This document shows, piece by piece, positions 9,079 to 51,307 of a stretch of DNA of 51,819 nt (positions are counted from its first letter, which is position 1; each line of letters begins with the position of its first letter). Made by a program: the position numbers and the translations under genes. The notes under the pieces are model-generated. The model did not search any database, was not told the origin of the DNA, and saw only the letters and a program-made list of their open reading frames with translations. The stretch comes from a phage: the NCBI GenBank assembly GCA_020279385.1, contig GCA_020279385.1_4133.1. One strand, given 5' to 3'.

Positions 9079-9130
9079 CAAATGTGGGGCCATGTATAAT
9101 GGCCCCACTTTCAACGAAGGAGATAAAACG

Positions 9131-10491: not shown

Positions 10492-10546
10492 ATCTCAACG
10501 GGCTTGCGTTATAGTAAGCCCATCAACAACAAACGAGGATTAAATC

Positions 10547-13085: not shown

Positions 13086-13104
13086 TAGCACTTTTTGTTA
13101 AAAC
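13083..13104 (+). promoter_or_regulatory. Conserved intergenic element copy
   Basis: taatagcactttttgttaaaac then hairpin agggcatttgataaagtgccct. Confidence 0.55.
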
Positions 13105-13160
13105 TTCCGAAAGGGCATTTGATAAAGTGCCCTTATTGAAGCGAAACAGAGGAAAGCGCA

Positions 13161-14907: not shown

Positions 14908-15132
14908 ATGATCGCATTATCTTTCTGCATTGGTTTTATCATGGCTATCATTATCTTTTCCGTTGTCATGCGCTTTGCTTATAAGTTCGTGATTAATAAA
15001 GGTTGGTACGCTTCTGCAATCTGGAGCGAAAAACAAAAGAAATGGCTTGTACGTGGTCAATACCTGATGATCGGTAGCAAGATCCTAAATTCCATTCGAG
15101 CCAAAGATGGGAAAGTAAAATATACAGCTTAA
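14908..15132 (+). CDS. Small membrane protein (74 aa)
   Basis: Hydrophobic N-terminal helix. Confidence 0.45.
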   Translation: MIALSFCIGFIMAIIIFSVVMRFAYKFVINKGWYASAIWSEKQKKWLVRGQYLMIGSKILNSIRAKDGKVKYTA

Positions 15133-15738: not shown

Positions 15739-17306
15739 TGATCATATGGGAAGATTTGACGGCGGCGCAAAAGCGAGCCATTAAAGAAATCAGTGAGCAT
15801 TCATTCGAAAAGATGATCAGAATCTGGTTCCAATTATTGCAGGGGCAAAAATTCCAGAGCAACTGGCATTTTAGCTTATTGTGCAGTGAGGTAGAGAAGA
15901 TCATCAATGGAGAGTCGCAGAATGTGATTTTCAACATTACGCCAGGTAGCGGCAAGACTGAGATTTTCTCGATCCACATGTCACCCTACGCGTCATTGAA
16001 AAGCCGGAAAGTGAGAAACCTTAACCTTTCGTTTAGTGATGGCCTTGTCCAGCAAAACAGCAACCGGATAAAGGAGATTATCGGTTCTCCTGAGTGGCAA
16101 GAGCTATGGCCTGGAAAACTGGCAAAGGCGAGCGCTAAAGATCTGATAGTCACCGAAGGCGGCAAGGTTAAATTGCAAGTTAACTCACGTTCTATTGGCG
16201 GCCAGGTAACAGGTTTGCGTGGCGGATATATGGATGATGGTTTTACTGGTATGCTGGTTCTTGACGATCCAGACAAGCCGGATGATATGCTTTCTAAGGT
16301 CAAGCGCGAGGCTATTCACATGCGATTAAAAAACACAGTGCGATCGCGTCGAATGAAAGACACCACGCCAATTGTTATGGTGCAACAGCGACTACACGTT
16401 AATGATTCCACCTGGTTCATGCTTAATGGCGGGATGGGTGGTATTGAGTTTAAAGTCGTTAGCATTCCGGCGCTGGTTACGAAAGAATACCGCGAAACGC
16501 TTCCTGATTGGTTGAAGCCTGAATTTGATCGTGATGTTCTGTCAAGTAAGCCAGTGATGATAGATGGCGTTGCTCATTATTCATTTTGGCCTGCGAAGGA
16601 AAGCGCGGAGGAGTTGCTTGCATTGCGCAATGCAGATCCTTACACGTTCGCCAGCCAATACCAACAGCAACCAATCGCGCTGGGCGGGAACGTGTTTAAA
16701 ACAGAGTGGTTCCAGTATTACGGCAGCGGCGAAAAATGCGCGCTTCCTAAACCGGATCGCTTTGAATACACATTTATTACTGGAGATACCGCGCAGAAGG
16801 CCGGAGAGCTTAACGACTATTCGGTTTTTTGTTATTGGGGGATGTATAAGAATCGCGTTTACTTCATTGATGGCATTCGCGGAAAGTGGGAAGCGCCGGA
16901 TCTTGAATTAAATTTTATTGCCTTCGTTAACCAGTGCTGGAAGCGCAATAAGGAGTGTGGCAGCTTGCGACGTATCCACATTGAGGATAAGGCCAGCGGC
17001 ACGGGTTTGATTCAGGGGGCCAAAAAGAAGATCCCGATTGATATAAATCCCGTTCAGCGAAACAATGACAAGGTGACGCGAGCAATGGACGCCGCGCCAG
17101 TAATGAGGGCCGGACGTGTGGCACTGCCAGAAAATCACCCCATGCTGCCTGAGATACTGGCAGAGGTTGCAGCATTCACTTTTGATGATTCTCATCCCCA
17201 TGATGATATTGTCGATAATATAGTTGATGCTGTTAACGTCGAAATGAACTTGGCAGATGATCCGGTGGCAAGGATGAAAAAGCTGGCTGGTCTACGCAAT
17301 AAATAG
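15738..17306 (+). CDS. terL: Terminase large subunit
   Basis: 522 aa; Walker A-like PGSGKT; position between small subunit and portal. Confidence 0.8.
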   Translation: MIIWEDLTAAQKRAIKEISEHSFEKMIRIWFQLLQGQKFQSNWHFSLLCSEVEKIINGESQNVIFNITPGSGKTEIFSIHMSPYASLKSRKVRNLNLSFSDGLVQQNSNRIKEIIGSPEWQELWPGKLAKASAKDLIVTEGGKVKLQVNSRSIGGQVTGLRGGYMDDGFTGMLVLDDPDKPDDMLSKVKREAIHMRLKNTVRSRRMKDTTPIVMVQQRLHVNDSTWFMLNGGMGGIEFKVVSIPALVTKEYRETLPDWLKPEFDRDVLSSKPVMIDGVAHYSFWPAKESAEELLALRNADPYTFASQYQQQPIALGGNVFKTEWFQYYGSGEKCALPKPDRFEYTFITGDTAQKAGELNDYSVFCYWGMYKNRVYFIDGIRGKWEAPDLELNFIAFVNQCWKRNKECGSLRRIHIEDKASGTGLIQGAKKKIPIDINPVQRNNDKVTRAMDAAPVMRAGRVALPENHPMLPEILAEVAAFTFDDSHPHDDIVDNIVDAVNVEMNLADDPVARMKKLAGLRNK

Positions 17307-17323
17307 CACTAATTGCTAAAAAG
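17301..17323 (+). promoter_or_regulatory. Conserved intergenic element copy (variant)
   Basis: aaatagcactaattgctaaaaag containing terL stop; followed by TATAAT and hairpin. Confidence 0.5.
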
Positions 17324-17335
17324 TTATATAATCAA

Positions 17336-17360
17336 GGCTGGATTTTTCCAGCCTTTTTTA
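17336..17360 (+). terminator. Terminator-like hairpin before portal
   Basis: ggctggatttttccagcc plus T-run, then GGAG RBS. Confidence 0.5.
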
Positions 17361-17376
17361 TTATGGAGATTTGACG

Positions 17377-21902: not shown

Positions 21903-21927
21903 CTAATAGCATAAAAAAACATTGCAC

Positions 21928-21946
21928 GTTTAACAAAAAGTGCTAT
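21928..21946 (-). promoter_or_regulatory. Conserved intergenic element copy in reverse orientation inside the rightward structural module
   Basis: gtttaacaaaaagtgctat on plus strand; orientation opposite to flanking genes. Confidence 0.45.
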
Positions 21947-21952
21947 CATCTA

Positions 21953-21979
21953 GGCCGTTACATTTAACGGCCTTTTTTA
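21953..21979 (+). terminator. Terminator-like hairpin before major capsid gene
   Basis: ggccgttacatttaacggcc plus T-run then GGAGG. Confidence 0.55.
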
Positions 21980-21992
21980 TGGAGGAAACAAA

Positions 21993-22964
21993 ATGGCTAA
22001 AAAATATGATGAACTAGATGCTACGATTGTAGCGAATCATTTGCAGATTCAGGGCGTTAAGAGCGACGCTTCTGATATGGGTATTTGGACCGCTCAAGAG
22101 CTACACAAGATCCGCTCTACCGCATACGAGAAAGAGTATCCGGCAGGTTCCGCGCTTCGCGTATTCCCTGTAACAAACGAGCTTTCTGATACTGACAAGA
22201 CTTTCGAATATCAGACTTTTGATAAGGTTGGCTACGCGAAAATTATCGCCGACTACACCGATGATCTGCCGACTGTGGACGCGTTGATGACTTCTGAGTT
22301 TGGCAAAGTGTTCCGCCTGGGTAACGCTTATCTGATCTCCATTGATGAGATTAAAGCAGGTCAGCGAACTGGCAAGAGCCTGTCAACTCGCAAGGCTAAC
22401 GCTGCGCAAAATGCGCATGATCAGTTGATTAACTTCCTGGTGTTCAAAGGTTCCAAGCCTCATAAGATCGTTTCCGTTTTCGATCATCCTAACCTTACGA
22501 AAATTGCATCCAAAGGCTGGATGAGCAATGACGGCAATACCAAGTTCCCGCAGGTAGCAAGCGATGAACTGGAGGCCGCAATCGAAACGATCGAGGAAGT
22601 AACAAAAGGCCAGCACCGCGCGACTAACATCCTGATCCCGCCGTCCATGCGCAAAGTACTGACGGTTCGAATGGAAAATACCACTGAAAGTTATCTGGAA
22701 TACTTCCAGAAGCAAAACGGCGGTATCACTATCGACTCTATCGCAGAGCTTGAGGATATTGACGGCAAAGGTACGAAAGGTTGCTTGGTTTACGAAAAAG
22801 ATCCAATGAACATGAGCATTGAGATTCCAGAAGCGTTTAACATGCTTCCGGCGCAGCCAAAAGACCTACATTTCAAGGTTCCTTGCACTTCTAAGTGTAC
22901 TGGCCTTACGATTTATCGTCCGTTTACGATGGTGCTCATTACCGGCTTGAAAAAAGCTGAGTAA
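21993..22964 (+). CDS. Major capsid protein
   Basis: 323 aa in the expected position with strong RBS. Confidence 0.7.
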   Translation: MAKKYDELDATIVANHLQIQGVKSDASDMGIWTAQELHKIRSTAYEKEYPAGSALRVFPVTNELSDTDKTFEYQTFDKVGYAKIIADYTDDLPTVDALMTSEFGKVFRLGNAYLISIDEIKAGQRTGKSLSTRKANAAQNAHDQLINFLVFKGSKPHKIVSVFDHPNLTKIASKGWMSNDGNTKFPQVASDELEAAIETIEEVTKGQHRATNILIPPSMRKVLTVRMENTTESYLEYFQKQNGGITIDSIAELEDIDGKGTKGCLVYEKDPMNMSIEIPEAFNMLPAQPKDLHFKVPCTSKCTGLTIYRPFTMVLITGLKKAE

Positions 22965-31782: not shown

Positions 31783-31804
31783 TGGTTGCTATAATGCAAC
31801 CTCA

Positions 31805-31826
31805 AAACAGCACAAATTGTTAAAAC
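31805..31826 (+). promoter_or_regulatory. Divergent copy of the conserved intergenic element upstream of the J-like gene
   Basis: aaacagcacaaattgttaaaac followed by GGAGG RBS. Confidence 0.4.
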
Positions 31827-34800: not shown

Positions 34801-35407
34801 CGATGCAATCAAGGTTGATGTTGAGGCGAACATATCAGAAGTAAGACAGGCTATCGCTAATGAGACAGAGGCAAGGGTTCAGGCTGACCAGGCTTTAACA
34901 GCCAAATTCGGAGACGTTGAATCAGCACTAGCCGAAAAACTTGATTCGTGGGCTAACGTTGATTCGGTTGGCGCTAAGTACGCTATGAAATTGGGCCTTA
35001 CTTACAAGGGACAGAAGTACAGCGCAGGAATGATCATGCAGTTGTCGCAATCTTCTCAAGGCTTGATCTCGCAAATCTTGTTTGATGCTAACAGGTTCGC
35101 GATCATGACTAGCTCTACTGGCGGAACGTTTACTTTGCCTTTCGTTGTTGAAAACAACCAGGTTTTCATTAACAGCCTGCTAGTGAAAAACGGGTCCATC
35201 ACAAATGCTATGATCGGTAATTATATTCAGTCGAATAACTTTGTTGCTAATCAGCAGGGGTGGAGGCTGGATAAAAATGGCAGATTTGAGAACTATGGTT
35301 CTACATCTGGAGAAGGGGCCATGAAGTTGACCAACGAAACGATAAGTGTACGGGACGCAAACGGGCGCTTGCGTGTTCAGATTGGTAGGCTTACTGGTAC
35401 GTGGTAA
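31841..35407 (+). CDS. Host specificity / central tail fibre protein J-like
   Basis: 1188 aa after the I-like gene; FN3-like segment; C-terminal coiled-coil repeats. Confidence 0.8.
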   Translation: MISGNKGGSSKPYTPKEMEDNLISINKIKILLAVSDGEVDGEFSLKNLYLDDVPVQNADGSLNYSGVSAEFRPGTQTQDYIKGFSDTSSEITIQRDLAQNNPYSIAVTNKSLSAIRIKILMPQGYKQENNGDLVGVSVQYAVDMAVDGGSFQRVLTDTITGKTTSGYDRSQRIDLPAFNEQVILRVSRITADSNTSRVVDAIRLQSYAEVVDAKFRYPLTGLVYVEFDSELFPTQLPNISIKKKWKLIKVPVNYDPDSRTYSGSWNGLFKTAWSNNPAWVLYDLITNQRYGLDQRELGIEIDKWSIYEAAQYCDQMVPDGKGGLEPRYLCDVVIQSQIEAFNLIRDICSIFRGMSFWNGESLSIVVDKPRDPSYIFSNDNVVNGDFQYTFASEKSMYTQCNVTFDDEQNMYSQDIEGVFDTEAALRFGHNPTSITAIGCTRRSEANRRGRWILKTNLRSTTVNFATGLEGMIPTIGDVIAIADNFWASNLTLNLSGRVMEVSGLQVFLPFRVDARPGDFILINKPDGKPVKRTISRVSADGKTIELNVGFGFDVKPDTVFAIDRTDLALQQYVVTGITRGDDTEQFTYSITAVEYDPNKYDEIDYGVNIDDRPTSIVNPGVMKAPENVQVSSYSRIVQGQSVETMVVSWDKVEYASLYEVQWRKDNSNWLNVPQTANKEVSVEGIYSGNYFVRVRSVSASGSTSPWSKIATATLTGKVGEPGAPINLTASDNEVFGIRVKWGMPEGSGDTAYIELHQSPDGAVENSSLLTLIPYPQYEYWHSTLPAGQVVWYRIRSVDRIGNVSGWTDFVRGMASDDVDSVLGDILDKIFDTEAGQEIKENAIDSANKIKDQAQSIIQNALANDADVKWTRVQNGKRKAEYGHALELIATETEARVTQIEELKASIDEDIVSSIKTVQEAIANESETRATQVQQLDSKFTKEIDGVKRDTAASIGEVRQTITNESEARAQAVQQLDAKFSKEINDLNDAIKVDVEANISEVRQAIANETEARVQADQALTAKFGDVESALAEKLDSWANVDSVGAKYAMKLGLTYKGQKYSAGMIMQLSQSSQGLISQILFDANRFAIMTSSTGGTFTLPFVVENNQVFINSLLVKNGSITNAMIGNYIQSNNFVANQQGWRLDKNGRFENYGSTSGEGAMKLTNETISVRDANGRLRVQIGRLTGTW
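34510..34920 (+). repeat. In-frame tandem repeats (about 42 aa each) in J-like C-terminus
   Basis: ANESETRATQVQQLDSKFTKEI / TNESEARAQAVQQLDAKFSKEI / ANETEARVQADQALTAKFGD. Confidence 0.6.
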
Positions 35408-35450
35408 AATCAAAGCGGGGCGCTTGCCCCGCATTTATGGAGGTTTAATA

Positions 35451-35762: not shown

Positions 35763-36353
35763 ATGGCACAATACGGAGCAAGTTTAAAATTATCCAATGG
35801 CAATGTTTTCGTTACTCCTGACGCAAGTCCTTTGTGCCTTTATAGGCGAATGACGCTAACGTCAAGTTACCAATCAGTGACAATTCCATCTGGTAAGCCT
35901 GTCATGTATTTTGCTCGTGACGCTGACGGAATATCAATGGCCTTTAGAAATTCAGCAACAGAATTGTTGGTTGGGCCTGGAAATGGAGTAGGTTACATCT
36001 TTACTATTTTTACTCCTTCGCTTCCAAAATATGGAATGGCGATCTGGAATGCTCAAGGTCAACTAATATTAACAAATGAATCAAGGATTCTTACAGATCT
36101 TGTAAAGGTTGGCACCCCTGGAAATAAAGGTGGAATATACATAGATCAGACTCTTACAGGTTCTTATGCGGTTGCGCCACAATTGCTTGGTGCTATTGTT
36201 GGAATGGGATCTGCATCTATTTATGCCGCAACAAAATATAACGGAAGCACTACAAGGATTTATGGCAAGGCAGCCGGACAGCCTCCAGGAGCTCAAGGTT
36301 ATATTAATCACGGAAATATAATTACAGCAATAAAGACTGATATTTACGACTAA
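35763..36353 (+). CDS. Hypothetical tail-associated protein (196 aa)
   Basis: Coupled to the upstream gene; shares the YG..W.A.G motif. Confidence 0.5.
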   Translation: MAQYGASLKLSNGNVFVTPDASPLCLYRRMTLTSSYQSVTIPSGKPVMYFARDADGISMAFRNSATELLVGPGNGVGYIFTIFTPSLPKYGMAIWNAQGQLILTNESRILTDLVKVGTPGNKGGIYIDQTLTGSYAVAPQLLGAIVGMGSASIYAATKYNGSTTRIYGKAAGQPPGAQGYINHGNIITAIKTDIYD

Positions 36354-36388: not shown

Positions 36389-36613
36389 CAGACTGCAATC
36401 AGCGTTTTTAAAGTTATCAATGCTCACCCACTGAAAATTAAATGGATAGCCAGCCTTGACAAGAGTGCGGTCGCCAACTCGTTTTGCCCCAAAGATAGCA
36501 ACTGAATACTGCATTCCGCTATTTTCATAAATAGCCGTGCATTCACGTTTAGGCATATTTGCGCAACCAGTCAGCGCAACGGCTGCGATTAAAACTGCAA
36601 TTAACTTTTTCAT
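36386..36613 (-). CDS. Outer-membrane lipoprotein, candidate Cor-like superinfection exclusion protein
   Basis: MKKLIAVLIAAVALTGC lipobox; small; antisense immediately after tail genes; AAGGAG RBS. Confidence 0.5.
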   Translation of the reverse strand: MKKLIAVLIAAVALTGCANMPKRECTAIYENSGMQYSVAIFGAKRVGDRTLVKAGYPFNFQWVSIDNFKNADCSL

Positions 36614-39970: not shown

Positions 39971-40166
39971 TTTGTTTTAGATACAGCTTCAACTTATTGT
40001 CAACATCAGTAGTTGATGCTTTTCCTGCAACATCCTGTTTTAGTGTCGAAACATCACTTTTCAGCTTCGTTATATCACCAGGAATAGTAGCAACATCCTG
40101 TTTTAGTGTTGAAACATCATTTTTCAGCCTCGTTATATCACTAGGTATAACAGTTACTGTAGCCAT
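39906..40166 (-). CDS. Small fibre-like protein with tandem 21-aa repeats; probably the 5' part of a frameshifted gene
   Basis: AAGGAG RBS; DITRLKNDVSTLKQDVA / DITKLKSDVSTLKQDVA repeats. Confidence 0.5.
   Translation of the reverse strand: MATVTVIPSDITRLKNDVSTLKQDVATIPGDITKLKSDVSTLKQDVAGKASTTDVDNKLKLYLKQNDLSSELDSGRYGGNFYPPDW
40028..40150 (-). repeat. Tandem 63-bp coding repeats
   Basis: caacatcctgttttagtgtcgaaacatcacttttcagcttcgttatatcacc repeated with few changes. Confidence 0.6.
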
Positions 40167-40178
40167 TTTCCTAACTCC

Positions 40179-40457
40179 TTAAGCCCATTCTCTAATCGGC
40201 TGATCTAACTCAACCACGTAGCCATTAAAAATTACGGCATCAAACTCATCATCAATGATTCGCACATTAACGAAATAGCCGTCGTTCTTTCGCGCAATCT
40301 CCTCGCCATCGTCAGATCGTGCAATTACTGTATAAGTATTGCCGATTACATCGAGCAGGATTGCATCCTGAATGGATTCGTTATCATCCCAATTAATTTT
40401 TCCTAAAAAGGCCGAAAACTCGGCCTTGTCTGCAAATTTTAATGTTAAATCACGCAT
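40179..40457 (-). CDS. Hypothetical protein (about 92 aa) between fibre genes
   Basis: ATG overlaps the tail fibre stop (TAATG). Confidence 0.45.
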   Translation of the reverse strand: MRDLTLKFADKAEFSAFLGKINWDDNESIQDAILLDVIGNTYTVIARSDDGEEIARKNDGYFVNVRIIDDEFDAVIFNGYVVELDQPIREWA

Positions 40458-42424
40458 TAAACAATTTCCCCCAATTGATGATCTGTTAGCGCCTTGTGCC
40501 ATATACGGAAGTTTCTAACGTGCCCGAAAAGATGGCGTTCGCCTGTACTTGTTTGTCCGCCAATCCTTATAGTGGCCGTCGATCTTATGTATCTCCATTC
40601 CGTTTTTGTTTCGCTTGATATTCTGGCATTACTTACACAGCAATTATTGTAATCACTCTTTACTCTCATTCCCATGATCATCTTTTTTAGTTTCGCATTC
40701 TCGTAAACCCTTCGGTTTGAGTTACCTATATCGCAATAAGGGAATCCGTCATTATCTCCCCCAGCAGACCCAAAAGCAAGAATAATTGCCGCTCCGGTTT
40801 GATGGCCGACTGTATCAAAAACACGCGGCGCTGCGTTTGGCGTTATACTCCAGTTTTTATGAGCTTCCACAAGCACTGTAAAAGGCAAATTGTAAAGGTT
40901 GTTTTTTATTGGCAATGTAACCATATCGCTTGCCCTTGTTGCCGGAGTTCCATCAGTGATAACCAGAGACGAAGCAGATGATCCGTTTTCAACTTGGGCG
41001 GTAGCTATAGTCATAAATTGACCTGCGGTAATATCCTGGCCTGCCCTTGCTATCATCTCAACGCGAGCATACATCTTTATATCTTCTGGTGCTCTATATG
41101 TACCCTGGAATAGTACCCATCCACCTGATTCTTGCTTTACATCATACGTCAAATTAACCCCTCCAGTCACATCAAGAGTGACAAGATCAAGCATCACATC
41201 AGCTATAAATATGTTTTCTTGTCCATCAGGACTGAGTTTGGAGAATCGCAATCTTAACCTAACTGGTGAAGAATATTCCTCGCCGATTCTTGCGCGTATT
41301 GAGATAGTTCCATACTCACCATTCGCAACATCCACTACGCGAGATGTACCAGTTGAAATTGCTGTGATCGGGCCAGTATCTTGACTTTCTTTATAAGTGA
41401 ATTTAGCGGAAGTTATACCAAATTCATCTGTAGAATCAGCTGATACGTCCAGTCTGTTTACGTTTCTATTCCATTTGTTCGGTGAATTGCTATTTATGAA
41501 GTTGTTTGTTCTCTGCCCTTCAATCAGCAATCCATCTCTTTCAAAACGCGGTTCATCAATTGCTGCAACAGTAAGAATACCTGATTTGTTAATGTATGTT
41601 GCAGTTGATGCACGTTTAAATTTGACAATCTTGTCGCCCGGCATCGTGATCTCATCATCACCTATGACAATCTTTTTGTATGACGGCGAGAATCCGGTGA
41701 TCATATCCAGGGAATCATTAAATGGTATCCACACGTCAGGCAGAGGCTGCAATAAATCTTTGTAAGGTTCTTCGGCCTGCTTTGCGTATTCCTCCGCTTG
41801 ATCTCTAGCACTTTCAGCACCTGTCTTTGCGGCATTCGCAGCATCACGCGCAGTTTCAGCGCCTTTTCTTGCAGTTTCAGCGCCAGTCTTTGCGGTATTT
41901 GCAGCGTCACGCGCGGATTCAGCGGCAGCCTTTGCAGTATCAGCACCTTTCTTGCTATTCTCTGCATTTGTTGCGCTTGTCTTTGCGTTATTCTCGCTAG
42001 TTTTAGCTGCCTTCTGGCTTGCTGCGGCTGCGTCAGCATTTGTCTTTACGTCTTCCTGGATCTTCTGTAGCTTATCCCAATCAAAATCCTTGATGATCTC
42101 AATAAATCCAGCAAACTCCGATTCCTTCCCCTGGTAATAACGCAACGTTTCCGCTACGTCTTGCGCAAGACCGTCAACCGTTAACGAGTCATGAAGCAAG
42201 ATCAGGTAATTTGTCTTCTTGACTACCGCGCCGCCAGTAGTAATTGCGCGAATGCTTGTATCGCTAATCACTTCCGTAATCACAGCAGCTTGCAAAGGTT
42301 GAGCAAGAAAGAAAATAGTTGCACCTGGGCGAATCAAGGTTAATTGCTCACGCCATTTTGTACCGTAACCAGTTACATAACCTTGCGCGTCCATAGACGC
42401 TTGGCCTTGTCTGTAAATCGCCAT
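40457..42424 (-). CDS. Tail fibre protein
   Basis: 655 aa from ATG 42424 (AGGAGG RBS); Ala/Thr/Lys-rich repeats; C-terminal lectin-like beta region. Confidence 0.65.
   Translation of the reverse strand: MAIYRQGQASMDAQGYVTGYGTKWREQLTLIRPGATIFFLAQPLQAAVITEVISDTSIRAITTGGAVVKKTNYLILLHDSLTVDGLAQDVAETLRYYQGKESEFAGFIEIIKDFDWDKLQKIQEDVKTNADAAAASQKAAKTSENNAKTSATNAENSKKGADTAKAAAESARDAANTAKTGAETARKGAETARDAANAAKTGAESARDQAEEYAKQAEEPYKDLLQPLPDVWIPFNDSLDMITGFSPSYKKIVIGDDEITMPGDKIVKFKRASTATYINKSGILTVAAIDEPRFERDGLLIEGQRTNNFINSNSPNKWNRNVNRLDVSADSTDEFGITSAKFTYKESQDTGPITAISTGTSRVVDVANGEYGTISIRARIGEEYSSPVRLRLRFSKLSPDGQENIFIADVMLDLVTLDVTGGVNLTYDVKQESGGWVLFQGTYRAPEDIKMYARVEMIARAGQDITAGQFMTIATAQVENGSSASSLVITDGTPATRASDMVTLPIKNNLYNLPFTVLVEAHKNWSITPNAAPRVFDTVGHQTGAAIILAFGSAGGDNDGFPYCDIGNSNRRVYENAKLKKMIMGMRVKSDYNNCCVSNARISSETKTEWRYIRSTATIRIGGQTSTGERHLFGHVRNFRIWHKALTDHQLGEIV
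41773..42013 (-). repeat. Low-complexity tandem repeats in tail fibre gene
   Basis: AKTSENNAKTSATNAENSKKGADTAKAAAESARDAANTAKTGAETARKGAETARDAANAAKTGAESARD. Confidence 0.55.
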
Positions 42425-42438
42425 TTGTAAAATCCTCC

Positions 42439-42458
42439 TAAATAGCACTTTTTGCTAA
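42439..42458 (+). promoter_or_regulatory. Conserved intergenic element copy, antisense to both flanking genes
   Basis: taaatagcactttttgctaa overlapping the tail fibre RBS; second partial copy taatagcatttt at about 42471. Confidence 0.45.
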
Positions 42459-42488
42459 TGACAATGCAGATAATAGCATTTTCAAGCG

Positions 42489-42515
42489 CAAAAAAAAACC
42501 CCGCATAAGCGGGGC
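42489..42515 (-). terminator. Rho-independent terminator for leftward transcript
   Basis: Minus strand ccccgcttatgcgggg followed by T9. Confidence 0.65.
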
Positions 42516-42530
42516 AATACTATCGGAGTT

Positions 42531-43460
42531 TTATAGCAGTGATTCGGGCTTGTAGAGTTTTCTTTCTACGCCCTGTTTAAAATTATCGTTAACAGGCATC
42601 ATTATGTCAAGCCCTCTTTCCTCTGCCGCGATTATCACATCACGATCATCTTTCCGGCAGACTACGCGCATTCTTCTTTCTCCTTTATATCTATGCGCAA
42701 CCATTTCAAGATTTGAAGGAGTAAAACAGGCCCACACCTCTTGACCAGTTGATAAATGAACATGCTGAGAATCAACCCAATCAAGGCACAAATAGATCGT
42801 CTTATCTGTGCTACCTGTTTTAACAACAGATCCGCGCGTGTAGTCGCGAGCTAAAAACCAATCCTTTCCATCCTCATCAATGAAAAGCACGTTACACATT
42901 TCATCATCCAGCCCGTCATCATGCACCAGGTGACAAGGTAGCGCGTGAATGTATCGACCATCCTTGACGCCGCAATCATAATGACAATCTTCCGGCGGAT
43001 ATATCCCTTCATAAACACTTAAAGGTGTGCGATCGAATTTTAATGTTTTTGCCATCACTTTTTCGCAGCATTCATGACTTGCCTGTTTCCCGAACGAGTA
43101 ACCAGAAGAACGCGAAGCGCGTTTGTTTGCTCTGATCCTGTAATCCTGCGGCACTTTTCCGAGGAATCGGCCCAAAATGTTGATGGCCTCGCTGTAAGGT
43201 TCGCCAGTTAATTTCATTAACCAACCGATCCCCGTGTCGTTGCCGCATACGTTGCAGATCGCGCCGCCGTCGCCCTCTTCATTTAGCTTATCAGTCCATC
43301 TAAAACGATCCTTACCGCCGCAGTGTGGGCAAGGTTGATGCTTTTTGTTGAAAACATCGCTATGCAGTCCGCAAATGCTTTGTAGTGCTTCACGCCATAA
43401 CCCCTTCATATATGGCAAAACATCTTCTTTCTGATAGGTCATAAAGTTTTCAGTATTCAT
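42531..43460 (-). CDS. DNA primase (zinc-ribbon containing)
   Basis: CPHCGG...CNVCG zinc-binding motif; start at internal ATG with GAGGT RBS. Confidence 0.6.
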   Translation of the reverse strand: MNTENFMTYQKEDVLPYMKGLWREALQSICGLHSDVFNKKHQPCPHCGGKDRFRWTDKLNEEGDGGAICNVCGNDTGIGWLMKLTGEPYSEAINILGRFLGKVPQDYRIRANKRASRSSGYSFGKQASHECCEKVMAKTLKFDRTPLSVYEGIYPPEDCHYDCGVKDGRYIHALPCHLVHDDGLDDEMCNVLFIDEDGKDWFLARDYTRGSVVKTGSTDKTIYLCLDWVDSQHVHLSTGQEVWACFTPSNLEMVAHRYKGERRMRVVCRKDDRDVIIAAEERGLDIMMPVNDNFKQGVERKLYKPESLL

Positions 43461-43515
43461 GGCAAACCTCAATAAAAAAGCCCAGCAAATATTATCATTT
43501 CGCTGAGCCTTATCA

Positions 43516-43992
43516 TTAGCTATTTGTGCTGTTATCACCTTTGTAGAATCGTCCGCCTGGTTCGTAGTCTGAATTTTTGACTACGCGCAACATCTCGTAT
43601 TTGTCGCAACGGGTAGTAAGAGGCTTACCGTTAGAATCAAACCGCAGATCTGGACGACAAAATGATGCGCGGTATCCTTTGCATCCATTATATTTGTAGT
43701 CGTTATGCACCTTTTGTGCTCCAGCGGCTGAAATCATACCACGCTTTCGCCATTGGTTAACGACTTGCTGAGATACGCGTAGACGTCGAGCCATAGCAGG
43801 AACACCGCCATAATACTCGATCAGAATATCCAAGCGAGATTTCAGGCTTGCTTTTACCTCATCTCGCAGGATAAGAAATCCGGTTCGGTGTTTTCGTGGC
43901 TTTTTGTCTTTACCTCGTCGCGTTCCGTTGTTACCGTTAATAGTGCGCTTGTCGATCTCACCCGTAGACACCGCAATTCGTGCATCTTTCAT
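43516..43992 (-). CDS. HTH DNA-binding protein
   Basis: Helix-turn-helix GGVPAMARRLRVSQQVVNQWRKRG; basic N-terminus; GAGGTGA RBS. Confidence 0.5.
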   Translation of the reverse strand: MKDARIAVSTGEIDKRTINGNNGTRRGKDKKPRKHRTGFLILRDEVKASLKSRLDILIEYYGGVPAMARRLRVSQQVVNQWRKRGMISAAGAQKVHNDYKYNGCKGYRASFCRPDLRFDSNGKPLTTRCDKYEMLRVVKNSDYEPGGRFYKGDNSTNS

Positions 43993-44002
43993 CTAGTCAC
44001 CT

Positions 44003-44023
44003 CATAGCATTTTTTGTTAAAAC
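44003..44023 (+). promoter_or_regulatory. Conserved intergenic element copy upstream of helicase
   Basis: catagcattttttgttaaaac, about 57 nt before ATG 44080. Confidence 0.5.
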
Positions 44024-44079
44024 AGTTTATTGTAATGAGTCTATTATATACTCCAAATGGCATTTTTTAAAGGTTTAAG

Positions 44080-46077
44080 ATGATTCCAAATATCGAAAAA
44101 CAAATATCAGCGTTAGGCGAGGCAGTAATAAAAAGCATCCAAGAGCGATTCACGGTTGGCAATATAGTGCCTTATCCTTATCAGTGCGTTGCGTATGCCG
44201 AGATCGCAAAGCGCATGAAAAACTATGAGCATCCTTTCTTTGTTAAGGCTTCTGTGTCGGCTGGCAAAACATTGATGTTTGCGATGGTTGCGGCGCAATG
44301 CCGCAAAATGGGATTGAAAATGATGGTCCTTGCTCGCCAGGCTGAAATTGTTGATCAGGATTCGGAAGAGATCAGCAATCTTGGCGTGCCAAACTCAATC
44401 TATTGCGCCGGACTGAAAACAAAAAGCGCATACTTTCCGATCGTGGTCGGTTCTGAGGGCACTGTAGTAAACGGATTGTTTAAGTCGTTAGGTGATTATG
44501 TTCCGCACGTTATCGGTATTGATGAATGTCACCAGGTGGATTGGGAGGATCTCGCGGACGCGATAGAAAATAATGAATCTTACCAGCAGATGACCACTAA
44601 GAAGGATTTGCCAGTACTGATTGGAGAAGAACAGCAATTTGATTCCAATGGCGATCCAATGTTCGGAACAGGGCGCACACAGTACACCGTAATAATCATG
44701 GAAATGATGCGCAGGTGTCGCGAGGCATACGGGCACGAATTGCGAATATTCGGTATGACTGGATCTGAGTTTCGCGGCGTGGTTCCAATACTGGTTGAAG
44801 ATAAGAACAAAAAGGGATTCTGGCGTGAGCAGGTGACTAACATAGACACAAACTACTTAATCAAATTTGGTTCTGTAGTGCCAACAAATTTCGGCGACGT
44901 AGGCGACCTGGGGTATGACCTTTCAGAGTTCGAAGCCAGTAGCGAGGATGGCGTTTCAGACTTTGACGCTAAAACATTGCGCAAGATGGAAGAAAAGATC
45001 CATCAAGACGCAACAATGACACAGAAAATCATGGCTAAAGTCCATGAGATATGCAAAGACAGGAACGGAGTTTTAGTTACATGCGCAGGGGAAAGACACT
45101 GCAAGGAGGCCGCCGCCGCACTTCCGCCAGGCGTTGAATACAGGATCATAACTGGCAAGACTGGAGACAATCAGCGTAAAGAGTGGCTGAGGGAGGCATA
45201 CGAGGGAAAAGTAAAATACATCTTCCAGGTACAGGCGCTTACCACTGGCGTTAACGTTCCGTTTTGGGATACTTCGGTAATACTGAGAAAGATAGGATCT
45301 CTAACATTGCTTATCCAGCTTTTGGGGCGCGGTATGCGACTGCTTAAGCAATGGCACATTGAGCAGGGATTCAAGAAAAAAGATCATCTTGTATTGGATT
45401 TTGCCGGTACTATGGATGAGTTAGGGGATTTGTATTTCGATCCAATCCTTGAGCAAGCGCAATTCCAAAAGAGATTTACAAACGGGAAAGAGCCTAAGAC
45501 TTGTCCGATATGTGGAACGCTAAACAGCTTTTACGCTCGCCGATGTATGCACGTAGACGATAACAGGAAGAGATGCGAGCATTTTTGGACTTACAGAATT
45601 TGCGAGGACCAGGTAGATCCGAGAACAAAAAAGATAATCAAGCGCGGTTGCGGAACAAAAAACGACGTAGTGGCGAGAGTATGCCGTTGTTGCGATATTT
45701 CTCTTGTCGATCCTAACGAGAAGTTAAGCGGTAAGCACTACACCAAAAACGATTGGTGCAACGTTAAATCTTTCCGCGTTGATATGACGAAAAACCAGAA
45801 AGGAATTATTTTTTGCTATGAGCTTGAGGCCAACGGCGACACGTTCAAGGCATACGAAAGATTTTTTCCTGAGTCAGAAAGCAACATTTGCCGGACGATA
45901 TGGAGAAAAATAGCATTGCAGCACATACCGGATCGCAAGATTGCTGGTATGGTGGCGAGCTATAGAAATGCTCGCAAAATAATGTCATACGCTCATCACA
46001 TCATGCCGCCTGTACGCGTAACGCATCGCAAAAACGGCAAAGGTGAGGATAACATTGCAAAACGGGAGTTTGTTTAA
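44080..46077 (+). CDS. SF2 DNA helicase with C-terminal Cys-rich zinc-ribbon domain
   Basis: Walker A SAGKT; motif II IGIDECHQ; C-terminal CPICG...CRCC. Confidence 0.8.
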   Translation: MIPNIEKQISALGEAVIKSIQERFTVGNIVPYPYQCVAYAEIAKRMKNYEHPFFVKASVSAGKTLMFAMVAAQCRKMGLKMMVLARQAEIVDQDSEEISNLGVPNSIYCAGLKTKSAYFPIVVGSEGTVVNGLFKSLGDYVPHVIGIDECHQVDWEDLADAIENNESYQQMTTKKDLPVLIGEEQQFDSNGDPMFGTGRTQYTVIIMEMMRRCREAYGHELRIFGMTGSEFRGVVPILVEDKNKKGFWREQVTNIDTNYLIKFGSVVPTNFGDVGDLGYDLSEFEASSEDGVSDFDAKTLRKMEEKIHQDATMTQKIMAKVHEICKDRNGVLVTCAGERHCKEAAAALPPGVEYRIITGKTGDNQRKEWLREAYEGKVKYIFQVQALTTGVNVPFWDTSVILRKIGSLTLLIQLLGRGMRLLKQWHIEQGFKKKDHLVLDFAGTMDELGDLYFDPILEQAQFQKRFTNGKEPKTCPICGTLNSFYARRCMHVDDNRKRCEHFWTYRICEDQVDPRTKKIIKRGCGTKNDVVARVCRCCDISLVDPNEKLSGKHYTKNDWCNVKSFRVDMTKNQKGIIFCYELEANGDTFKAYERFFPESESNICRTIWRKIALQHIPDRKIAGMVASYRNARKIMSYAHHIMPPVRVTHRKNGKGEDNIAKREFV

Positions 46078-46496
46078 TGGCTATAACTGATAAAGGAGAT
46101 TATCTTGAGTTTTACGAAAGAGATCCAACAGACACGAGAAAGGAAGTTAATCACCAGATAGATAGTTTTCAGTGGTTGACTTATGCTCATCCTTACTTGC
46201 TGGCGTGGCATACGGTAAACGAGAATGAGAAGTCGAAAGTAACGGCGATGATTGATCAGCAGTCCGGCTTGGTTAAGGGGGTAAGCGATTTCATCATCCT
46301 GATTGGTTCAAACGGAAAATACCCCTTTGCAGCGATTGAGATCAAACGAGTGAATAAATCAGGCAAGGGGAAAGCATCACCAGTCAGCGATGAACAAAAG
46401 GCTTTTTTGCGTCGCGTTCGCAGCTTAGGAGGATTCGCTGCGGTCGCCTACGGATTTAATCAGTTTAAGTTAGCTATTGAATACATGCTTAAATAG
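46077..46496 (+). CDS. VRR-NUC domain nuclease
   Basis: DFIILIG...AAIEIKR (D..ExK core); ATG overlaps helicase stop. Confidence 0.6.
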   Translation: MAITDKGDYLEFYERDPTDTRKEVNHQIDSFQWLTYAHPYLLAWHTVNENEKSKVTAMIDQQSGLVKGVSDFIILIGSNGKYPFAAIEIKRVNKSGKGKASPVSDEQKAFLRRVRSLGGFAAVAYGFNQFKLAIEYMLK

Positions 46497-46512
46497 CACT
46501 TTTTGTTAAAAC
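46491..46512 (+). promoter_or_regulatory. Conserved intergenic element copy
   Basis: aaatagcactttttgttaaaac with TAG stop of 46077-46496, then hairpin ggcgcgatggattgcgcc and CATAAT. Confidence 0.55.
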
Positions 46513-46576
46513 TGGCGCGATGGATTGCGCCATAATTCAATAACACGAGATGGCTTTTAATAGCGGAGAAATGAAA

Positions 46577-47306: not shown

Positions 47307-47564
47307 ATGGAAAAAGAGAGAAGCGTTTATTTAAATGAAACTGGCGAGTGGTTGTTATTTCGCGCTATGGTGTGCGATGCACTTGATAAAAACCCTAACG
47401 TGAAAAAGATGATTGATTGCGATCCGTGGGAATTTTCAAGCGCATTAGATATGAGCTTTGAGGAGACAAGAAAACTCCCGCTTGAAAAATGGCACGAACA
47501 AATCAGAAATGACATGCAAGAGTTTGTCGATTCGTGGAATTTTCAGCACGGAATGATCCACTAA
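47307..47564 (+). CDS. Hypothetical protein (85 aa)
   Basis: ORF with ATG start. Confidence 0.5.
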   Translation: MEKERSVYLNETGEWLLFRAMVCDALDKNPNVKKMIDCDPWEFSSALDMSFEETRKLPLEKWHEQIRNDMQEFVDSWNFQHGMIH

Positions 47565-47583
47565 TAGCACTTTTTGTTAAAAC
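47562..47583 (+). promoter_or_regulatory. Conserved intergenic element copy with hairpin; inverted partner at 51265-51307
   Basis: taatagcactttttgttaaaac then cccggcctagtgtcggg and CATAAT. Confidence 0.55.
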
Positions 47584-47639
47584 GCCCGGCCTAGTGTCGG
47601 GCATAATTATTTCAACGAAGCAAACATGAGGAAATAAAA

Positions 47640-51226: not shown

Positions 51227-51286
51227 AATTTTACCTTTTGGTTGTTTCGTTTCGATGAAACAAATATACCCGACACTAGGCCGGGC

Positions 51287-51307
51287 GTTTTAACAAAAAA
51301 TGCTATT
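51287..51307 (-). promoter_or_regulatory. Conserved intergenic element copy with hairpin, inverted relative to the 47562 copy
   Basis: gttttaacaaaaaatgctatt preceded by cccgacactaggccggg on plus strand. Confidence 0.5.

What the first reader, a model, noticed from the sequence alone, without database searches (positions are those of the whole stretch)
42439..42483. Element copy antisense to both neighbouring genes, with a second partial copy
At 42439-42458 the element is in forward orientation although both flanking genes (tail fibre and primase) are leftward. It overlaps the reverse complement of the tail fibre ribosome-binding site and is followed by a partial copy (taatagcatttt at about 42471) and the leftward terminator. 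A similar reverse copy (21928-21946) lies inside the rightward structural module next to a partial forward copy. These exceptions suggest the element is not simply a promoter for the downstream gene; it may drive antisense RNA or act as a protein-binding site.
Basis: partly seen in the sequence, partly recalled or inferred. Interest (0 to 1): 0.45.

Follow-up and report, generated by a model that had tools for sequence, protein, structure and literature searches.

The report
Regulator-binding site in tail-fibre leader
This is a promoter-less copy of the 21-base repeat that marks early promoters in T1-like phages; it sits just after the start of the side tail fibre transcript and most likely binds a phage regulator rather than driving antisense RNA.

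Summary
The window is a Warwickvirus (Drexlerviridae), 99.4% identical to vB_Eco_SLUR29 over 40000-45000.

**Observation: confirmed.** ATAGCACTTTTTGCTAA lies at 42442-42458 (+), between the leftward tail fibre and primase genes. It belongs to a family of about 20 copies (17 matches against 0.22 expected by chance). The family is already published for phage TLS as a 21-nt repeat of unknown function.

**Canonical copies are promoters.**
- In seven genomes, 118 of 143 copies carry a -10 hexamer 20-22 nt (mostly exactly 21 nt) downstream.
- They also carry G at -14 and a C/A start site, and have no -35.
- This places the imperfect palindrome TAGCA-N5-TGnTA at -42.

**The 42442 copy lacks all of this on the + strand.**
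- The "partial copy" (42471-42482) is the reverse complement of a conserved extended -10, TGcTATTAT. This is the tail fibre's own late promoter.
- The full copy therefore sits at about +7 to +21 of that transcript.
- Similar copies without a -10 occur at other late promoters: the capsid promoter (inside a TTGnnn-N16-TGcTATnAT promoter), the J gene and the portal gene.
- The leader copy is conserved in three subfamilies and lost in others.

**Best reading (inferred, not shown):** an operator for a phage DNA-binding protein, probably the Cro-like regulator at 43516-43992.

The antisense-promoter reading is not supported.

The parts
42442..42458 (+). Full copy of the Drexlerviridae repeat, ATAGCACTTTTTGCTAA. 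Its core is a perfect inverted repeat, TAGCA (42443-42447), N5, TGCTA (42453-42457). No -10 hexamer follows it on the + strand.
   Evidence: Homologous copies occur in mar001J1, Samwise, IsaakIselin, K50PH164C1, BHUENT9, T1, Shfl1 and 12469II.
42470..42478 (-). Extended -10 promoter TGcTATTAT of the side tail fibre gene (TG at 42478-42477, hexamer at 42475-42470). The predicted start is about 42463.
   Evidence: Conserved as TGcTAT(T/A)AT or TGcTAAAAT directly after the terminator in Warwick-, Hanriver- and Henuseptimavirus, K50 and BananaBelafonte. It has the same layout as the other late promoters of the window. In one search, 114 phage records cover at least 80% of an 81-nt query over this region. 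In the rows shown, Hanrivervirus-type records match only query positions 34-81 (the extended -10 and terminator part), not the element.
42434..42439 (-). Shine-Dalgarno sequence AGGAGG of the tail fibre gene. The start codon ATG is at 42424-42422.
   Evidence: SLUR29 annotation; PHROG tail fibre match.
42498..42515 (-). Intrinsic terminator ending the primase transcript (GCCCCGCTTATGCGGGGT followed by T9).
   Evidence: conserved in relatives.
21922..21949 (+). Major capsid promoter TTGCAC-N16-TGcTATCAT. The reversed element copy (21930-21946, - strand) supplies the spacer and the TGcTAT part. The palindrome centre lies at about -18.
   Evidence: The homologues are T1 TTGACG-N16-TGcTATTAT (annotated as a promoter), TLS TTGAAC-N16-TGcTATATT, A123 TTGCAC-N16-TGcTATCAT and N22 TTGACC-N16-TGcTATTCT.
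21952..21973 (+). Terminator hairpin that begins 2 nt after the capsid -10 hexamer. The predicted start falls inside its 5' arm.
31787..31823 (+). Promoter of the central tail fibre gene (J-like): extended -10 TGcTATAAT (31787-31795), then 12 nt, then a forward copy without a -10, ACAGCACAAATTGTTAA (31807-31823), then the ribosome-binding site.
   Evidence: The 12-nt gap between hexamer and core is the same as at the side tail fibre promoter, although the element has the opposite orientation. In T1 and TLS the gap is 15 nt.
17303..17332 (+). Copy between terL and portal, ATAGCACTAATTGCTAA (17303-17319), with no -10 at the canonical spacing. TATAAT lies at 17327-17332, followed after 3 nt by the terminator hairpin.
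   Evidence: A123 has the same arrangement.
44004..44020 (+). Promoter-type copy for the helicase gene (-10 TATTAT at 44042-47). The same site lies between the regulator gene's own promoter and its ribosome-binding site.
   Evidence: The arrangement is conserved in T1, Shfl1, AKS96, Call and TLS.
43516..43992 (-). Candidate binding protein: a 158-aa regulator with a Cro-like helix-turn-helix domain.
   Evidence: phrog_2856, E 1.6e-72. Weak Pfam matches to YdaS and P22_Cro. PDB Cro proteins 5w8y (E 6e-4) and 3bd1. A core gene found in 850 phage records, almost all Drexlerviridae-type. The helix-turn-helix region is conserved.
44043..44071 (-). Sigma-70 promoter of the regulator gene, TTTAAA-17-TATAAT. 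Its -10 overlaps the helicase -10 on the other strand by 5 nt.
   Evidence: Homologous promoters are annotated in T1 and AKS96.

Best explanation
The copy at 42442-42458 is a genuine member of the Drexlerviridae repeat family, but it is a binding-site-only member.

**What canonical copies are.** They are the upstream half of early and middle promoters. The imperfect palindrome TAGCA-N5-TG(C/T)TA is centred at -42. There is no -35. An (extended) -10 hexamer lies 20-22 nt (mostly exactly 21) after TTAA, and transcription starts at a conserved C/A.

**What the 42442 copy is.** It has none of the promoter parts on its own strand. It lies on the transcribed side of the side tail fibre gene's own late promoter. 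That promoter is the extended -10 TGcTATTAT at 42478-42470 on the - strand, immediately after the primase terminator. The palindrome therefore occupies about +7 to +21 (centre about +14), just ahead of the ribosome-binding site.

**Proposed mechanism (inferred).** A phage DNA-binding protein recognises the element wherever it occurs. The most likely candidate is the Cro-like regulator encoded two genes upstream at 43516-43992.
- Centred at -42, the site helps RNA polymerase, in the geometry known for lambda cI at PRM and for class II activators.
- Placed over the core or the initial transcribed region of late promoters (side tail fibre, J, capsid, portal), the site hinders polymerase or blocks read-through from the early regulator-primase genes. 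This would hold late genes down while the protein is abundant.

**Shown versus inferred.** Shown: sequence, family membership, absence of an antisense promoter signature, the conserved late promoter, and conservation of the site. Inferred: protein binding, the identity of the protein, and the direction of the effect.
For: **1. The family is far above chance.** 17 matches against 0.22 expected.

**2. Most copies are promoters.**
- 118 of 143 copies in 7 genomes from 5 lineages have a -10-like hexamer 20-22 nt after TTAA, mostly exactly 21 nt.
- Within these, G at -14 occurs in 94/118, C at -1 in 84/118 and A at +1 in 95/118.
- The best -35 match is only 2-3 of 6.

**3. The copies without a -10 are almost all in the late region, at homologous places in several genera**. 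The sites are the capsid, J, terL-portal, terS (T1) and side tail fibre promoters.

**4. The 42442 copy has no promoter on its own strand.** The hexamer at the canonical spacing is TTTCAA; in relatives it is TGCGCA or TGTGCA, and T1 also has no -10-like hexamer at offsets 20-22. The scan finds no + strand promoter.

**5. The conserved feature of this intergenic region is the - strand extended -10.** It has the same terminator-plus-TGnTAnAAT layout as the terS, capsid, L, J and other late promoters.

**6. Spacing is independent of orientation.** There are exactly 12 nt between the hexamer and the palindrome both at the side tail fibre promoter (element reversed) and at the J promoter (element forward).

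**7. Late copies vary only as the family allows.** The centre reads TTT, GAA, GTT or TAA, while TAGCA, TTG and TAA stay fixed. Examples are N22 capsid TTAGCAATTCGTGCTAT and T1 leader ATAGCACGAATTGCTAA. The element identity is therefore being maintained, not just an arbitrary spacer or leader.

**8. The variable positions sit at the centre of the inverted repeat**, as is usual for sites bound by dimeric helix-turn-helix proteins.

**9. The regulator gene is arranged like an autoregulated switch.**
- It has its own sigma-70 promoter.
- The helicase element copy lies between that promoter and the regulator's ribosome-binding site.
- The two -10 hexamers overlap on opposite strands.
- This arrangement is seen in every lineage examined here (window, T1, Shfl1, TLS, AKS96, Call, N22, 12469II).

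**10. The regulator's helix-turn-helix domain resembles Cro proteins**. T1's GenBank record reports HHpred similarity to P22 C2.
Against: - No binding, footprint or transcription-start data exist for any Drexlerviridae. Literature searches found none.
- The palindrome is imperfect. Positions 1 and 7 and the AAAAC flank are asymmetric.
- Promoter-type copies are strictly one-way. Mirror geometry is seen in only 8 of 143 copies, which is background level. The recognising factor could therefore be asymmetric, and might not bind reversed copies equivalently.
- The leader copy is absent or decayed in Tlsvirus, Hanrivervirus (a 5-nt deletion), Rogunavirus AKS96 and BananaBelafonte. At most it is modulatory.
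- Its distance from the -10 differs between lineages: 12 nt in Tempevirinae, 7 nt in T1 and Shfl1, and 6 nt in 12469II.
- Several late promoters (terS, L) have no copy.
- Other helix-turn-helix proteins are encoded in the window and could be the binder.
- Whether the protein activates at -42 or represses there cannot be decided from sequence. Many promoter-type copies have extended -10 features and could work unaided.
Confidence: 0.5

Rival explanations
1. Antisense promoter. The copy would drive a + strand RNA running antisense into the primase gene, and the 21930 copy would drive a - strand RNA antisense to the decoration gene.
For: - The element is the hallmark of about 118 real-looking promoters.
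- A GATAAT lies 11 nt after the 42442 copy.
- At the capsid copy, the - strand has TGcTATTAG at exactly the canonical spacing. Five of six genomes keep TGnTA at that position.
Against: - At 42442 the canonical position reads TTTCAA. Homologues read TGCGCA or TGTGCA, and T1 also has no -10-like hexamer at offsets 20-22.
- GATAAT is 10 nt too close. It is simply the complement of the leftward -10 and changes with it in relatives (GATTAT, AATTTT).
- The scan finds no + strand sigma-70-like site.
- There is no G at -14 and no C/A start motif.
- At the capsid copy, every homologue lacks the essential T at -7 (TATTAG, TATACA, TAGCAC, TATGGG).
Confidence: 0.07
2. Decaying relic. The copy would be a former promoter-type or capsid-type element, duplicated or inverted into this spacer, that is now neutral and slowly eroding.
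For: - The copy is lost or eroded in four lineages: Tlsvirus, Hanrivervirus (5-nt deletion), Rogunavirus and BananaBelafonte.
- The leader sequence aligns with the capsid promoter if a 2-nt gap is allowed (CATTG--TCATTAGCAAAAAGTGCTATTTA against CATTGCACGTTTAACAAAAAGTGCTATCAT).
Against: - It is retained at the same place in three subfamilies: Tunavirinae, Braunvirinae and Tempevirinae.
- All invariant family positions are intact, while the flanking spacer diverges. The element block matches Samwise at 22 of 24 positions, against about 17 of 26 for the adjacent spacer.
- Its variation follows the family's permitted variants.
Confidence: 0.2
3. RNA-level element. As part of the tail fibre 5' leader (UUAGCAAAAAGUGCUAUUU, just before the Shine-Dalgarno sequence), the copy would act in one of three ways:
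- as a small stabilising or translational hairpin;
- as a binding site for an RNA-binding protein;
- as a -10-like sequence (TGcTATTTA) in the non-template strand that causes sigma-dependent promoter-proximal pausing.
For: - The copy lies within the predicted leader and next to the Shine-Dalgarno sequence in all carriers.
- The same adjacency is seen at the regulator gene.
- The inverted repeat could form a 5-bp hairpin.
Against: - The leader fold is not better than shuffled sequence (MFE -8.5 kcal/mol, z -1.18), and the MFE structure does not use the 5-bp hairpin.
- Late copies occur in both orientations relative to transcription (J forward, side fibre reversed). The RNAs would therefore be complementary, not alike.
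- TATTTA lacks the T at -7 needed for sigma recognition.
- There is no Rfam match.
Confidence: 0.1
4. Loading site for a factor that modifies RNA polymerase. The late copies (between -35 and -10 at the capsid promoter, or just downstream of the start at the J and side fibre promoters) would let a phage protein board the polymerase. The polymerase could then read through the many terminators of the late region, in a Q-like manner.
For: - The late region is punctuated by terminators.
- Several late promoters sit 2-4 nt before a terminator hairpin.
- At the capsid promoter the element occupies the spacer between the -35 and -10 hexamers. From my own knowledge, this is where lambda Q's binding element lies.
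Against: - The candidate protein shows no similarity to Q proteins.
- The predicted starts fall inside the 5' arm of those hairpins, so transcripts made there would lack a full terminator. No antitermination is then needed.
- Many late promoters have no copy.
Confidence: 0.08

Closest known systems
21-nt intergenic direct repeats of phage TLS (aaATAGCACnnnTTGnTAAAA; PMC11447400, 2024). The paper reports that similar repeats are also present in T1, Rtp and Rogue1.
   Same: - It is the same sequence family. The window has about 20 copies, and 42440-42460 matches the consensus except for the last two bases.
- TLS Table S1 already lists the homologues of the capsid copy (DR7, negative strand) and the J copy (DR8).
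   Different: - The paper states that the repeats lie in the direction of transcription, about 76 nt before start codons. It leaves their function open, suggesting stoperator, enhancer or UP element.
- It does not describe the fixed 21-nt spacing to a -10, the palindromic core, or a separate class without a -10.
- TLS itself lacks the side tail fibre leader copy.
Activation from a site centred near -42: lambda cI at OR2/PRM and class II CRP/FNR promoters (own knowledge)
   Same: - In the promoter-type copies the inverted repeat is centred at -42 of promoters that lack a -35.
- The candidate protein has a Cro/cI-type helix-turn-helix domain.
   Different: - There is no evidence here of protein binding or of contact with sigma.
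- The site is reused about 16 times per genome in a virulent phage.
- The 42442 copy itself is not in this geometry.
Operators in the initial transcribed region, such as lacO1 centred at +11 (own knowledge)
   Same: The palindrome of the 42442 copy is centred at about +14 of the predicted tail fibre transcript, and at +8 to +9 in T1, Shfl1 and 12469II. This is inside the polymerase footprint.
   Different: The start site is predicted, not mapped. Repression has not been tested.
Stoperators of mycobacteriophage L5 (Brown et al. 1997, cited in PMC11447400)
   Same: Many copies of one short site are spread through a phage genome, in intergenic spaces, and some lie downstream of promoters.
   Different: - L5 stoperators are asymmetric and act in one orientation relative to transcription, in a temperate phage.
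- Here, most copies are phased with a -10 and a start site, so they are parts of promoters. The late copies occur in both orientations.
Extended -10 (TGnTATAAT) promoters of E. coli sigma-70 (own knowledge)
   Same: - The "partial copy" is the complement of TGcTATTAT.
- The reversed element itself supplies the TGcTAT of the capsid promoter.
   Different: This is an ordinary host-type promoter, not an element copy. Its resemblance to the element is limited to TAGCA/TGCTA.
T4 middle promoters (MotA box plus -10, no -35; PMC2988021 and own knowledge)
   Same: A phage-specific upstream box replaces the -35 in front of a sigma-70 -10.
   Different: - The MotA box is centred at -30 and needs AsiA.
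- Here the box is centred at -42.
- No MotA or AsiA homologue was looked for or seen.

Membership tests
Drexlerviridae 21-nt repeat (TLS DR family) | Match to aaATAGCACnnnTTGnTAAAA | tested here: met
   42440-42460 reads AAATAGCACTTTTTGCTAATG. All specified positions match except the last two.
Drexlerviridae 21-nt repeat (TLS DR family) | Intergenic location | tested here: met
   The copy lies between the tail fibre start (42424) and the primase stop (42531).
Drexlerviridae 21-nt repeat (TLS DR family) | Oriented with transcription, about 76 nt upstream of a start codon | tested here: not met
   Both neighbouring genes are on the - strand. The next + strand gene (helicase, 44080) is 1.6 kb away and has its own copy.
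Promoter-type copy (this analysis) | -10 hexamer 20-22 nt after TTAA, G at -14, C/A start 7 nt after the hexamer | tested here: not met
   The hexamer at the canonical position is TTTCAA, and homologues have none either. In contrast, 118 of 143 family members have these features.
Sigma-70 promoter on the + strand (antisense) | -35/-10 or extended -10 consensus at a workable spacing | tested here: not met
   The consensus scan gives no + strand site between 42300 and 42950.
Extended -10 promoter (the "partial copy", - strand) | TG at -15/-14 plus a hexamer matching TATAAT at 5 of 6 or better, upstream of a gene, conserved in relatives | tested here: met
   TGcTATTAT lies at 42478-42470. It is conserved in 8 of 11 aligned relatives. 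In one search, 114 phage records cover at least 80% of an 81-nt query over this region; in the rows shown, Hanrivervirus-type records match only the part holding this promoter (query positions 34-81).
Extended -10 promoter (the "partial copy", - strand) | Mapped transcription start | not testable with these tools
   No transcriptome or 5'-end data for Drexlerviridae were found.
Operator of a dimeric helix-turn-helix (Cro/cI-type) regulator | Inverted repeat with half-sites about 10 bp apart and a variable centre | tested here: met
   TAGCA-CTTTT-TGCTA is a perfect repeat in this copy. Across the family, 4 of 5 symmetric positions are invariant and the centre is variable.
Operator of a dimeric helix-turn-helix (Cro/cI-type) regulator | Specific binding by the protein | not testable with these tools
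   Only the candidacy of the 43516-43992 product could be assessed.
L5-type stoperator | A single orientation relative to the direction of transcription | tested here: not met
   The late copies lie in both orientations: J and portal forward, capsid and side fibre reversed.
Known RNA family (Rfam) | Match at the family's gathering score | tested here: not met
   There are no hits in the window. Near the site there are only sub-threshold hits driven by the terminator.

The most novel reading that the evidence does not exclude
One Cro-like protein and one 21-bp element would run the whole temporal programme of a large family of virulent phages.
- The protein is made first, from its own sigma-70 promoter.
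- It then flips the overlapping divergent promoter pair towards the helicase gene.
- It switches on about 16 promoters that lack a -35, from a site centred at -42.
- Through copies without a -10, placed in either orientation over late promoters (including 42442-42458), it holds back the capsid, tail-tip and side-fibre genes until replication titrates it.

A still bolder variant is that the late copies are loading sites for an antitermination activity.
Probability: 0.25. Interest if true: 0.65.

Novelty: new variant of a known kind. Interest (0 to 1): 0.45.

Why it matters
T1-like phages are classic and notorious laboratory contaminants, yet how they time their genes is unknown. A 2024 paper lists the function of this very repeat as an open question.

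The exceptions flagged here turn out to be informative. They separate the repeat (a probable protein-binding site) from the promoter parts that usually accompany it. They also show the same site placed in activating and in blocking positions.

This gives a concrete, cheap test:
- one purified protein;
- a few DNA fragments;
- one 5'-end mapping experiment.

That test could settle how early-to-late switching works in a whole phage family. It would also supply compact, well-insulated promoter and terminator modules for engineering.

Tried and rejected
**Antisense sigma-70 promoter on the + strand.** There is no site in the consensus scan and no -10 at the family spacing.

**GATAAT 11 nt after the copy as a -10.** The spacing is wrong. 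It is the complement of the leftward -10 and co-varies with it.

**A small + strand ORF after the copy (ATGACAATGCAG..., 16 codons).**
- It has no ribosome-binding site.
- Its length and sequence are not conserved (11 codons in Samwise).
- The ATGACA is explained by the conserved TGTCAT on the other strand.

**The GTG at 42448 as the tail fibre start (ORF listing).** This is an in-frame artefact. The annotated ATG at 42424 has a well-placed AGGAGG.

**RNA structure in the tail fibre leader.** It is not significant.

**Rfam.** Nothing was found.

**Terminal redundancy inflating the copy count.** There is none in the window.

**Co-occurrence of regulator and element outside Drexlerviridae.** This was not informative. 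The regulator is confined almost entirely to the family, with only weak Cro-like hits elsewhere.

**Published transcriptomes or start-site maps for T1-like phages.** None were found.

**Structure prediction of the regulator.** Not run. It could not show DNA specificity.

Full report
**What the window is.** The region 40000-45000 is 99.4% identical to Escherichia phage vB_Eco_SLUR29 (Warwickvirus, Tempevirinae, Drexlerviridae). PHROG matches confirm the genes around the finding:
- leftward side tail fibre, 40457-42424;
- leftward primase, 42531-43460;
- rightward helicase, 44080-46077;
- major capsid, 21993-22964;
- portal, 17371-18669.

**Checking the observation.**
- The + strand reads ATAGCACTTTTTGCTAA at 42442-42458.
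- With up to 3 mismatches the motif occurs 17 times in the window, against 0.22 expected. A looser search gives 20 copies.
- The copy is flanked on the left, 2 nt away, by cctcct (42434-42439). This is the complement of the tail fibre Shine-Dalgarno sequence.
- On the right lie taatagcatttt (42471-42482) and the leftward terminator (42515-42498).
- The reverse copy is at 21930-21946.
- The description is therefore correct. TAATAGCAT on its own (2 occurrences against 0.6 expected) is not a significant repeat.

**The family is already published.**
- The 2024 re-annotation of phage TLS reports 21 copies of aaATAGCACnnnTTGnTAAAA, 18 of them intergenic.
- It describes them as "in the direction of transcription", about 76 nt before start codons.
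- It says similar repeats occur in T1, Rtp and Rogue1, and lists their function as an open question (PMC11447400).
- I found no transcriptome or start-site data for any Drexlerviridae.

**What canonical copies are.** I scanned seven genomes: the window, T1, TLS, A123 (Hanrivervirus-like), N22 (Webervirus), 12469II (Braunvirinae) and BHUENT9.
- 118 of 143 copies have a -10-like hexamer 20-22 nt after TTAA. In three of the genomes, 46 of 65 copies have it at exactly 21 nt.
- In those 118, the commonest hexamers are TATAGT, CATAAT, TATTAT and TATAAT.
- G occupies -14 in 94 of them, and TG precedes the hexamer in 50.
- The best -35 match is only 2-3 of 6.
- C and A occupy the positions 6 and 7 nt after the hexamer in 84 and 95 cases, which is a start-site signature.
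- These are therefore real promoters without a -35.
- Counting from that A, the element's inverted repeat TAGCA-N5-TG(C/T)TA is centred at -42. The three variable bases of the published consensus are the centre of this repeat.
- The geometry is one-way. A mirror-image arrangement is seen in only 8 of 143 copies, which is background level.

**The exceptions form a class.** The roughly 25 copies without a -10 are almost all in the late region, at homologous places in different genera.

1. *Upstream of the major capsid gene, reversed.* The + strand reads:
   - TTGCAC-N16-TGcTATCAT in the window (21922-21949);
   - TTGACG-N16-TGcTATTAT in T1 (annotated as a promoter in GenBank);
   - TTGAAC-N16-TGcTATATT in TLS (the paper's DR7);
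   - similar sequences in A123 and N22.

   The reversed element supplies the spacer and the extended -10 of a rightward capsid promoter, and the palindrome is centred at about -18.
2. *Upstream of the central fibre gene J, forward.* Here there is a terminator, TGcTATAAT (31787-31795), 12 nt, then the core (31808-31822), then the ribosome-binding site. In T1 and TLS the gap is 15 nt.
3. *Between terL and portal* (window 17303, and A123).
4. *Before terS,* in T1 only.
5. *The side tail fibre leader,* which is the subject of this finding.

**The finding itself.** I aligned this spacer from 11 phages on the tail fibre's sense strand.
- The most conserved feature is an extended -10 directly after the primase terminator: TGcTATTAT (window, mar001J1, Hanrivervirus, BananaBelafonte), TGcTATAAT (Henuseptimavirus) or TGcTAAAAT (K50).
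- T1 has TTGCAA-17-TAAAAT there, and Tlsvirus has TTGCAT-17-CATAAT.
- The layout of terminator followed by TGnTAnAAT is the same as at the terS, L, J and other late genes of the window.
- In BananaBelafonte that promoter reads GTGCTATTAT preceded by AAAA. It is almost a reversed element, so these extended -10s may derive from the element.
- The full copy lies 12 nt downstream of the hexamer, at about +7 to +21 with its centre near +14. It ends 2 nt before the Shine-Dalgarno sequence.
- Homologous copies with all invariant positions intact are present in mar001J1, Samwise, IsaakIselin, K50PH164C1 and BHUENT9 (12 nt after the hexamer), in T1 and Shfl1 (7 nt), and in the Braunvirinae phage 12469II (6 nt).
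- The copy is absent in Tlsvirus, Rogunavirus AKS96 and BananaBelafonte. In Hanrivervirus it is broken by a 5-nt deletion.
- A BLAST search with 42420-42500 found 114 phage records covering at least 80% of the query. In the rows shown, Hanrivervirus-type records match only the promoter-terminator part (query positions 34-81).

**Why it is not an antisense promoter.**
- On the + strand the hexamer at the family spacing is TTTCAA. In relatives it is TGCGCA or TGTGCA, and T1 also has no -10-like hexamer at offsets 20-22.
- There is no G at -14 and no C/A start motif.
- The consensus scan finds no + strand promoter.
- The GATAAT 11 nt after the copy is the complement of the leftward -10 and changes with it.
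- At the capsid copy, the - strand keeps TGnTA at the canonical place, but in every genome it lacks the T at -7.

**Why a binding site is the best reading.**
- The late copies vary only in the ways the family allows: a centre of TTT, GAA, GTT or TAA, with TAGCA, TTG and TAA fixed. Examples are N22 capsid TTAGCAATTCGTGCTAT and T1 leader ATAGCACGAATTGCTAA. Selection therefore acts on the element, not on an arbitrary spacer or leader.
- In the window the gap between hexamer and core is identical (12 nt) at the J and side fibre promoters, although the orientation is opposite. This fits recognition of the symmetric core on DNA and argues against an RNA role.
- The leader RNA folds no better than shuffled sequence (z -1.18), and Rfam finds nothing.

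**The candidate protein.**
- The most likely binder is the 158-aa regulator at 43516-43992. The evidence is phrog_2856, weak Pfam Cro/YdaS matches, PDB Cro proteins at E 6e-4, and an HHpred match to P22 C2 reported in the T1 record.
- It is a core gene of the family, and its helix-turn-helix region is conserved.
- It has its own sigma-70 promoter, TTTAAA-17-TATAAT, whose -10 overlaps the helicase -10 on the other strand by 5 nt.
- The helicase element copy lies between that promoter and the regulator's ribosome-binding site.
- The same design is found in T1, Shfl1, TLS, AKS96, Call, N22 and 12469II. It looks like an autoregulated switch.
- From general knowledge, a site centred at -42 is where lambda cI activates PRM and where class II activators sit. 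A site over -25 to -11, or over +7 to +21, is where repressors act.
- The side tail fibre is also the only late gene lying directly downstream of early genes (regulator and primase) on the same strand. A block at its entrance would make biological sense.

**Caveats.**
- Binding, the identity of the protein and the sign of its effect are all inferences.
- The palindrome is imperfect, and promoter-type copies are strictly oriented. An asymmetric factor is therefore possible.
- The leader copy has been lost several times, so it is at most modulatory.
- Some late promoters carry no copy.
- At least two other helix-turn-helix proteins are encoded in the window.

**Verdict.**
- The antisense-RNA reading is not supported, and the protein-binding reading is the best supported.
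- The "partial copy" is the tail fibre's own extended -10 promoter.
- The element family is known, but the distinction between promoter-type copies and late-gene copies without a -10 is not in the literature I could search.
- That distinction turns the published open question into a simple experiment.

Noticed in passing
window 7603-7660, 9058-9110, 10472-10530, 13085-13140, 46493-46545 and others; also T1 (L012), TLS (L011), L016-L019: The roughly 33 nt from just after the element to 8 nt past the -10 fold far better than shuffled sequence in 118 promoters (mean MFE -10.1 kcal/mol, mean z -2.86; 66% have z below -2). The -10 hexamer lies inside the hairpin in 64 cases. In 25 cases the stem lies between the element and the hexamer, abutting the AAAA; on the other strand this reads hairpin plus TTTTAAC, which looks like a terminator. 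Stem sequences differ between copies. The function is unknown, and the TLS paper does not mention it.
   Followed up: partly
window 43470-43535 (- strand); TLS 35178-35242; T1 35930-35995: The primase promoter is nested in the regulator's terminator. A degenerate element (ACAGCACAAATAGCTAA) is followed by a hairpin whose loop holds the -10 (TAATAT), then a T-run, then the ribosome-binding site. Transcripts from upstream would terminate. Transcripts started inside the loop would lack the 5' arm and so escape termination.
   Followed up: partly
window 17327-17350, 21944-21980, 35402-35440; T1 10533-10570 and 15081-15121; TLS 10903-10941 and 15040-15069: A -10 hexamer followed 2-4 nt later by a terminator hairpin recurs before the portal gene, the capsid gene and the gene starting near 35450. 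The predicted starts fall inside the 5' arm of the hairpin. The terminator would then stop upstream transcripts but not those made at that promoter.
   Followed up: partly
window 42582-42610 (- strand): A near-consensus promoter, TTGACA-17-GATAAT (11 of 12), lies inside the last codons of primase, about 65 nt before the terminator. Both hexamers are kept in Tempevirinae relatives while the spacer shows synonymous changes. It could be an internal promoter, a short RNA ending at the terminator, or a second entry point for tail fibre transcription.
   Followed up: partly
window 44042-44048; also L013, L014, L015 and T1 36470-36490: The helicase -10 (TATTAT, + strand) and the regulator -10 (TATAAT, - strand) overlap by 5 nt. 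This is an overlapping pair of divergent promoters, conserved in every lineage examined.
   Followed up: partly
window 47563-47626 and 51243-51307: A 65-nt promoter module (element, hairpin and -10) is duplicated in inverted orientation at 89% identity.
   Followed up: no
window 40027-40086 and 40090-40149: A tandem duplication of about 63 nt (92% identity) lies inside a small leftward ORF downstream of the tail fibre gene.
   Followed up: no
L013 (Klebsiella phage Call) 3643-4134: In Webervirus the primase gene is followed by a 490-nt non-coding stretch rather than a tail fibre gene. It contains repeated cttacgtaaatttcgctcatttttt(a/g)accaa and aggtaagat motifs and may be a replication origin. 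An element copy follows, in front of the exonuclease gene.
   Followed up: no
T1 (L012) 18834-18850 (- strand): T1 has an extra reversed copy between the major tail gene and the tape-measure chaperone gene. It has a TAAGAT hexamer at the canonical spacing on the - strand. It is the one reversed late-region copy that could be a true antisense promoter, and it is absent from the window.
   Followed up: no
L018 (12469II) 17550-17600: In this Braunvirinae phage the leader copy ends only 7 nt before the tail fibre ATG (GTGCTATTTTACAAATG), with no Shine-Dalgarno sequence between them. The hexamer there is TATTTT with an upstream TG. This may indicate a leaderless or differently started transcript, or a mis-assigned start codon.
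   Followed up: no
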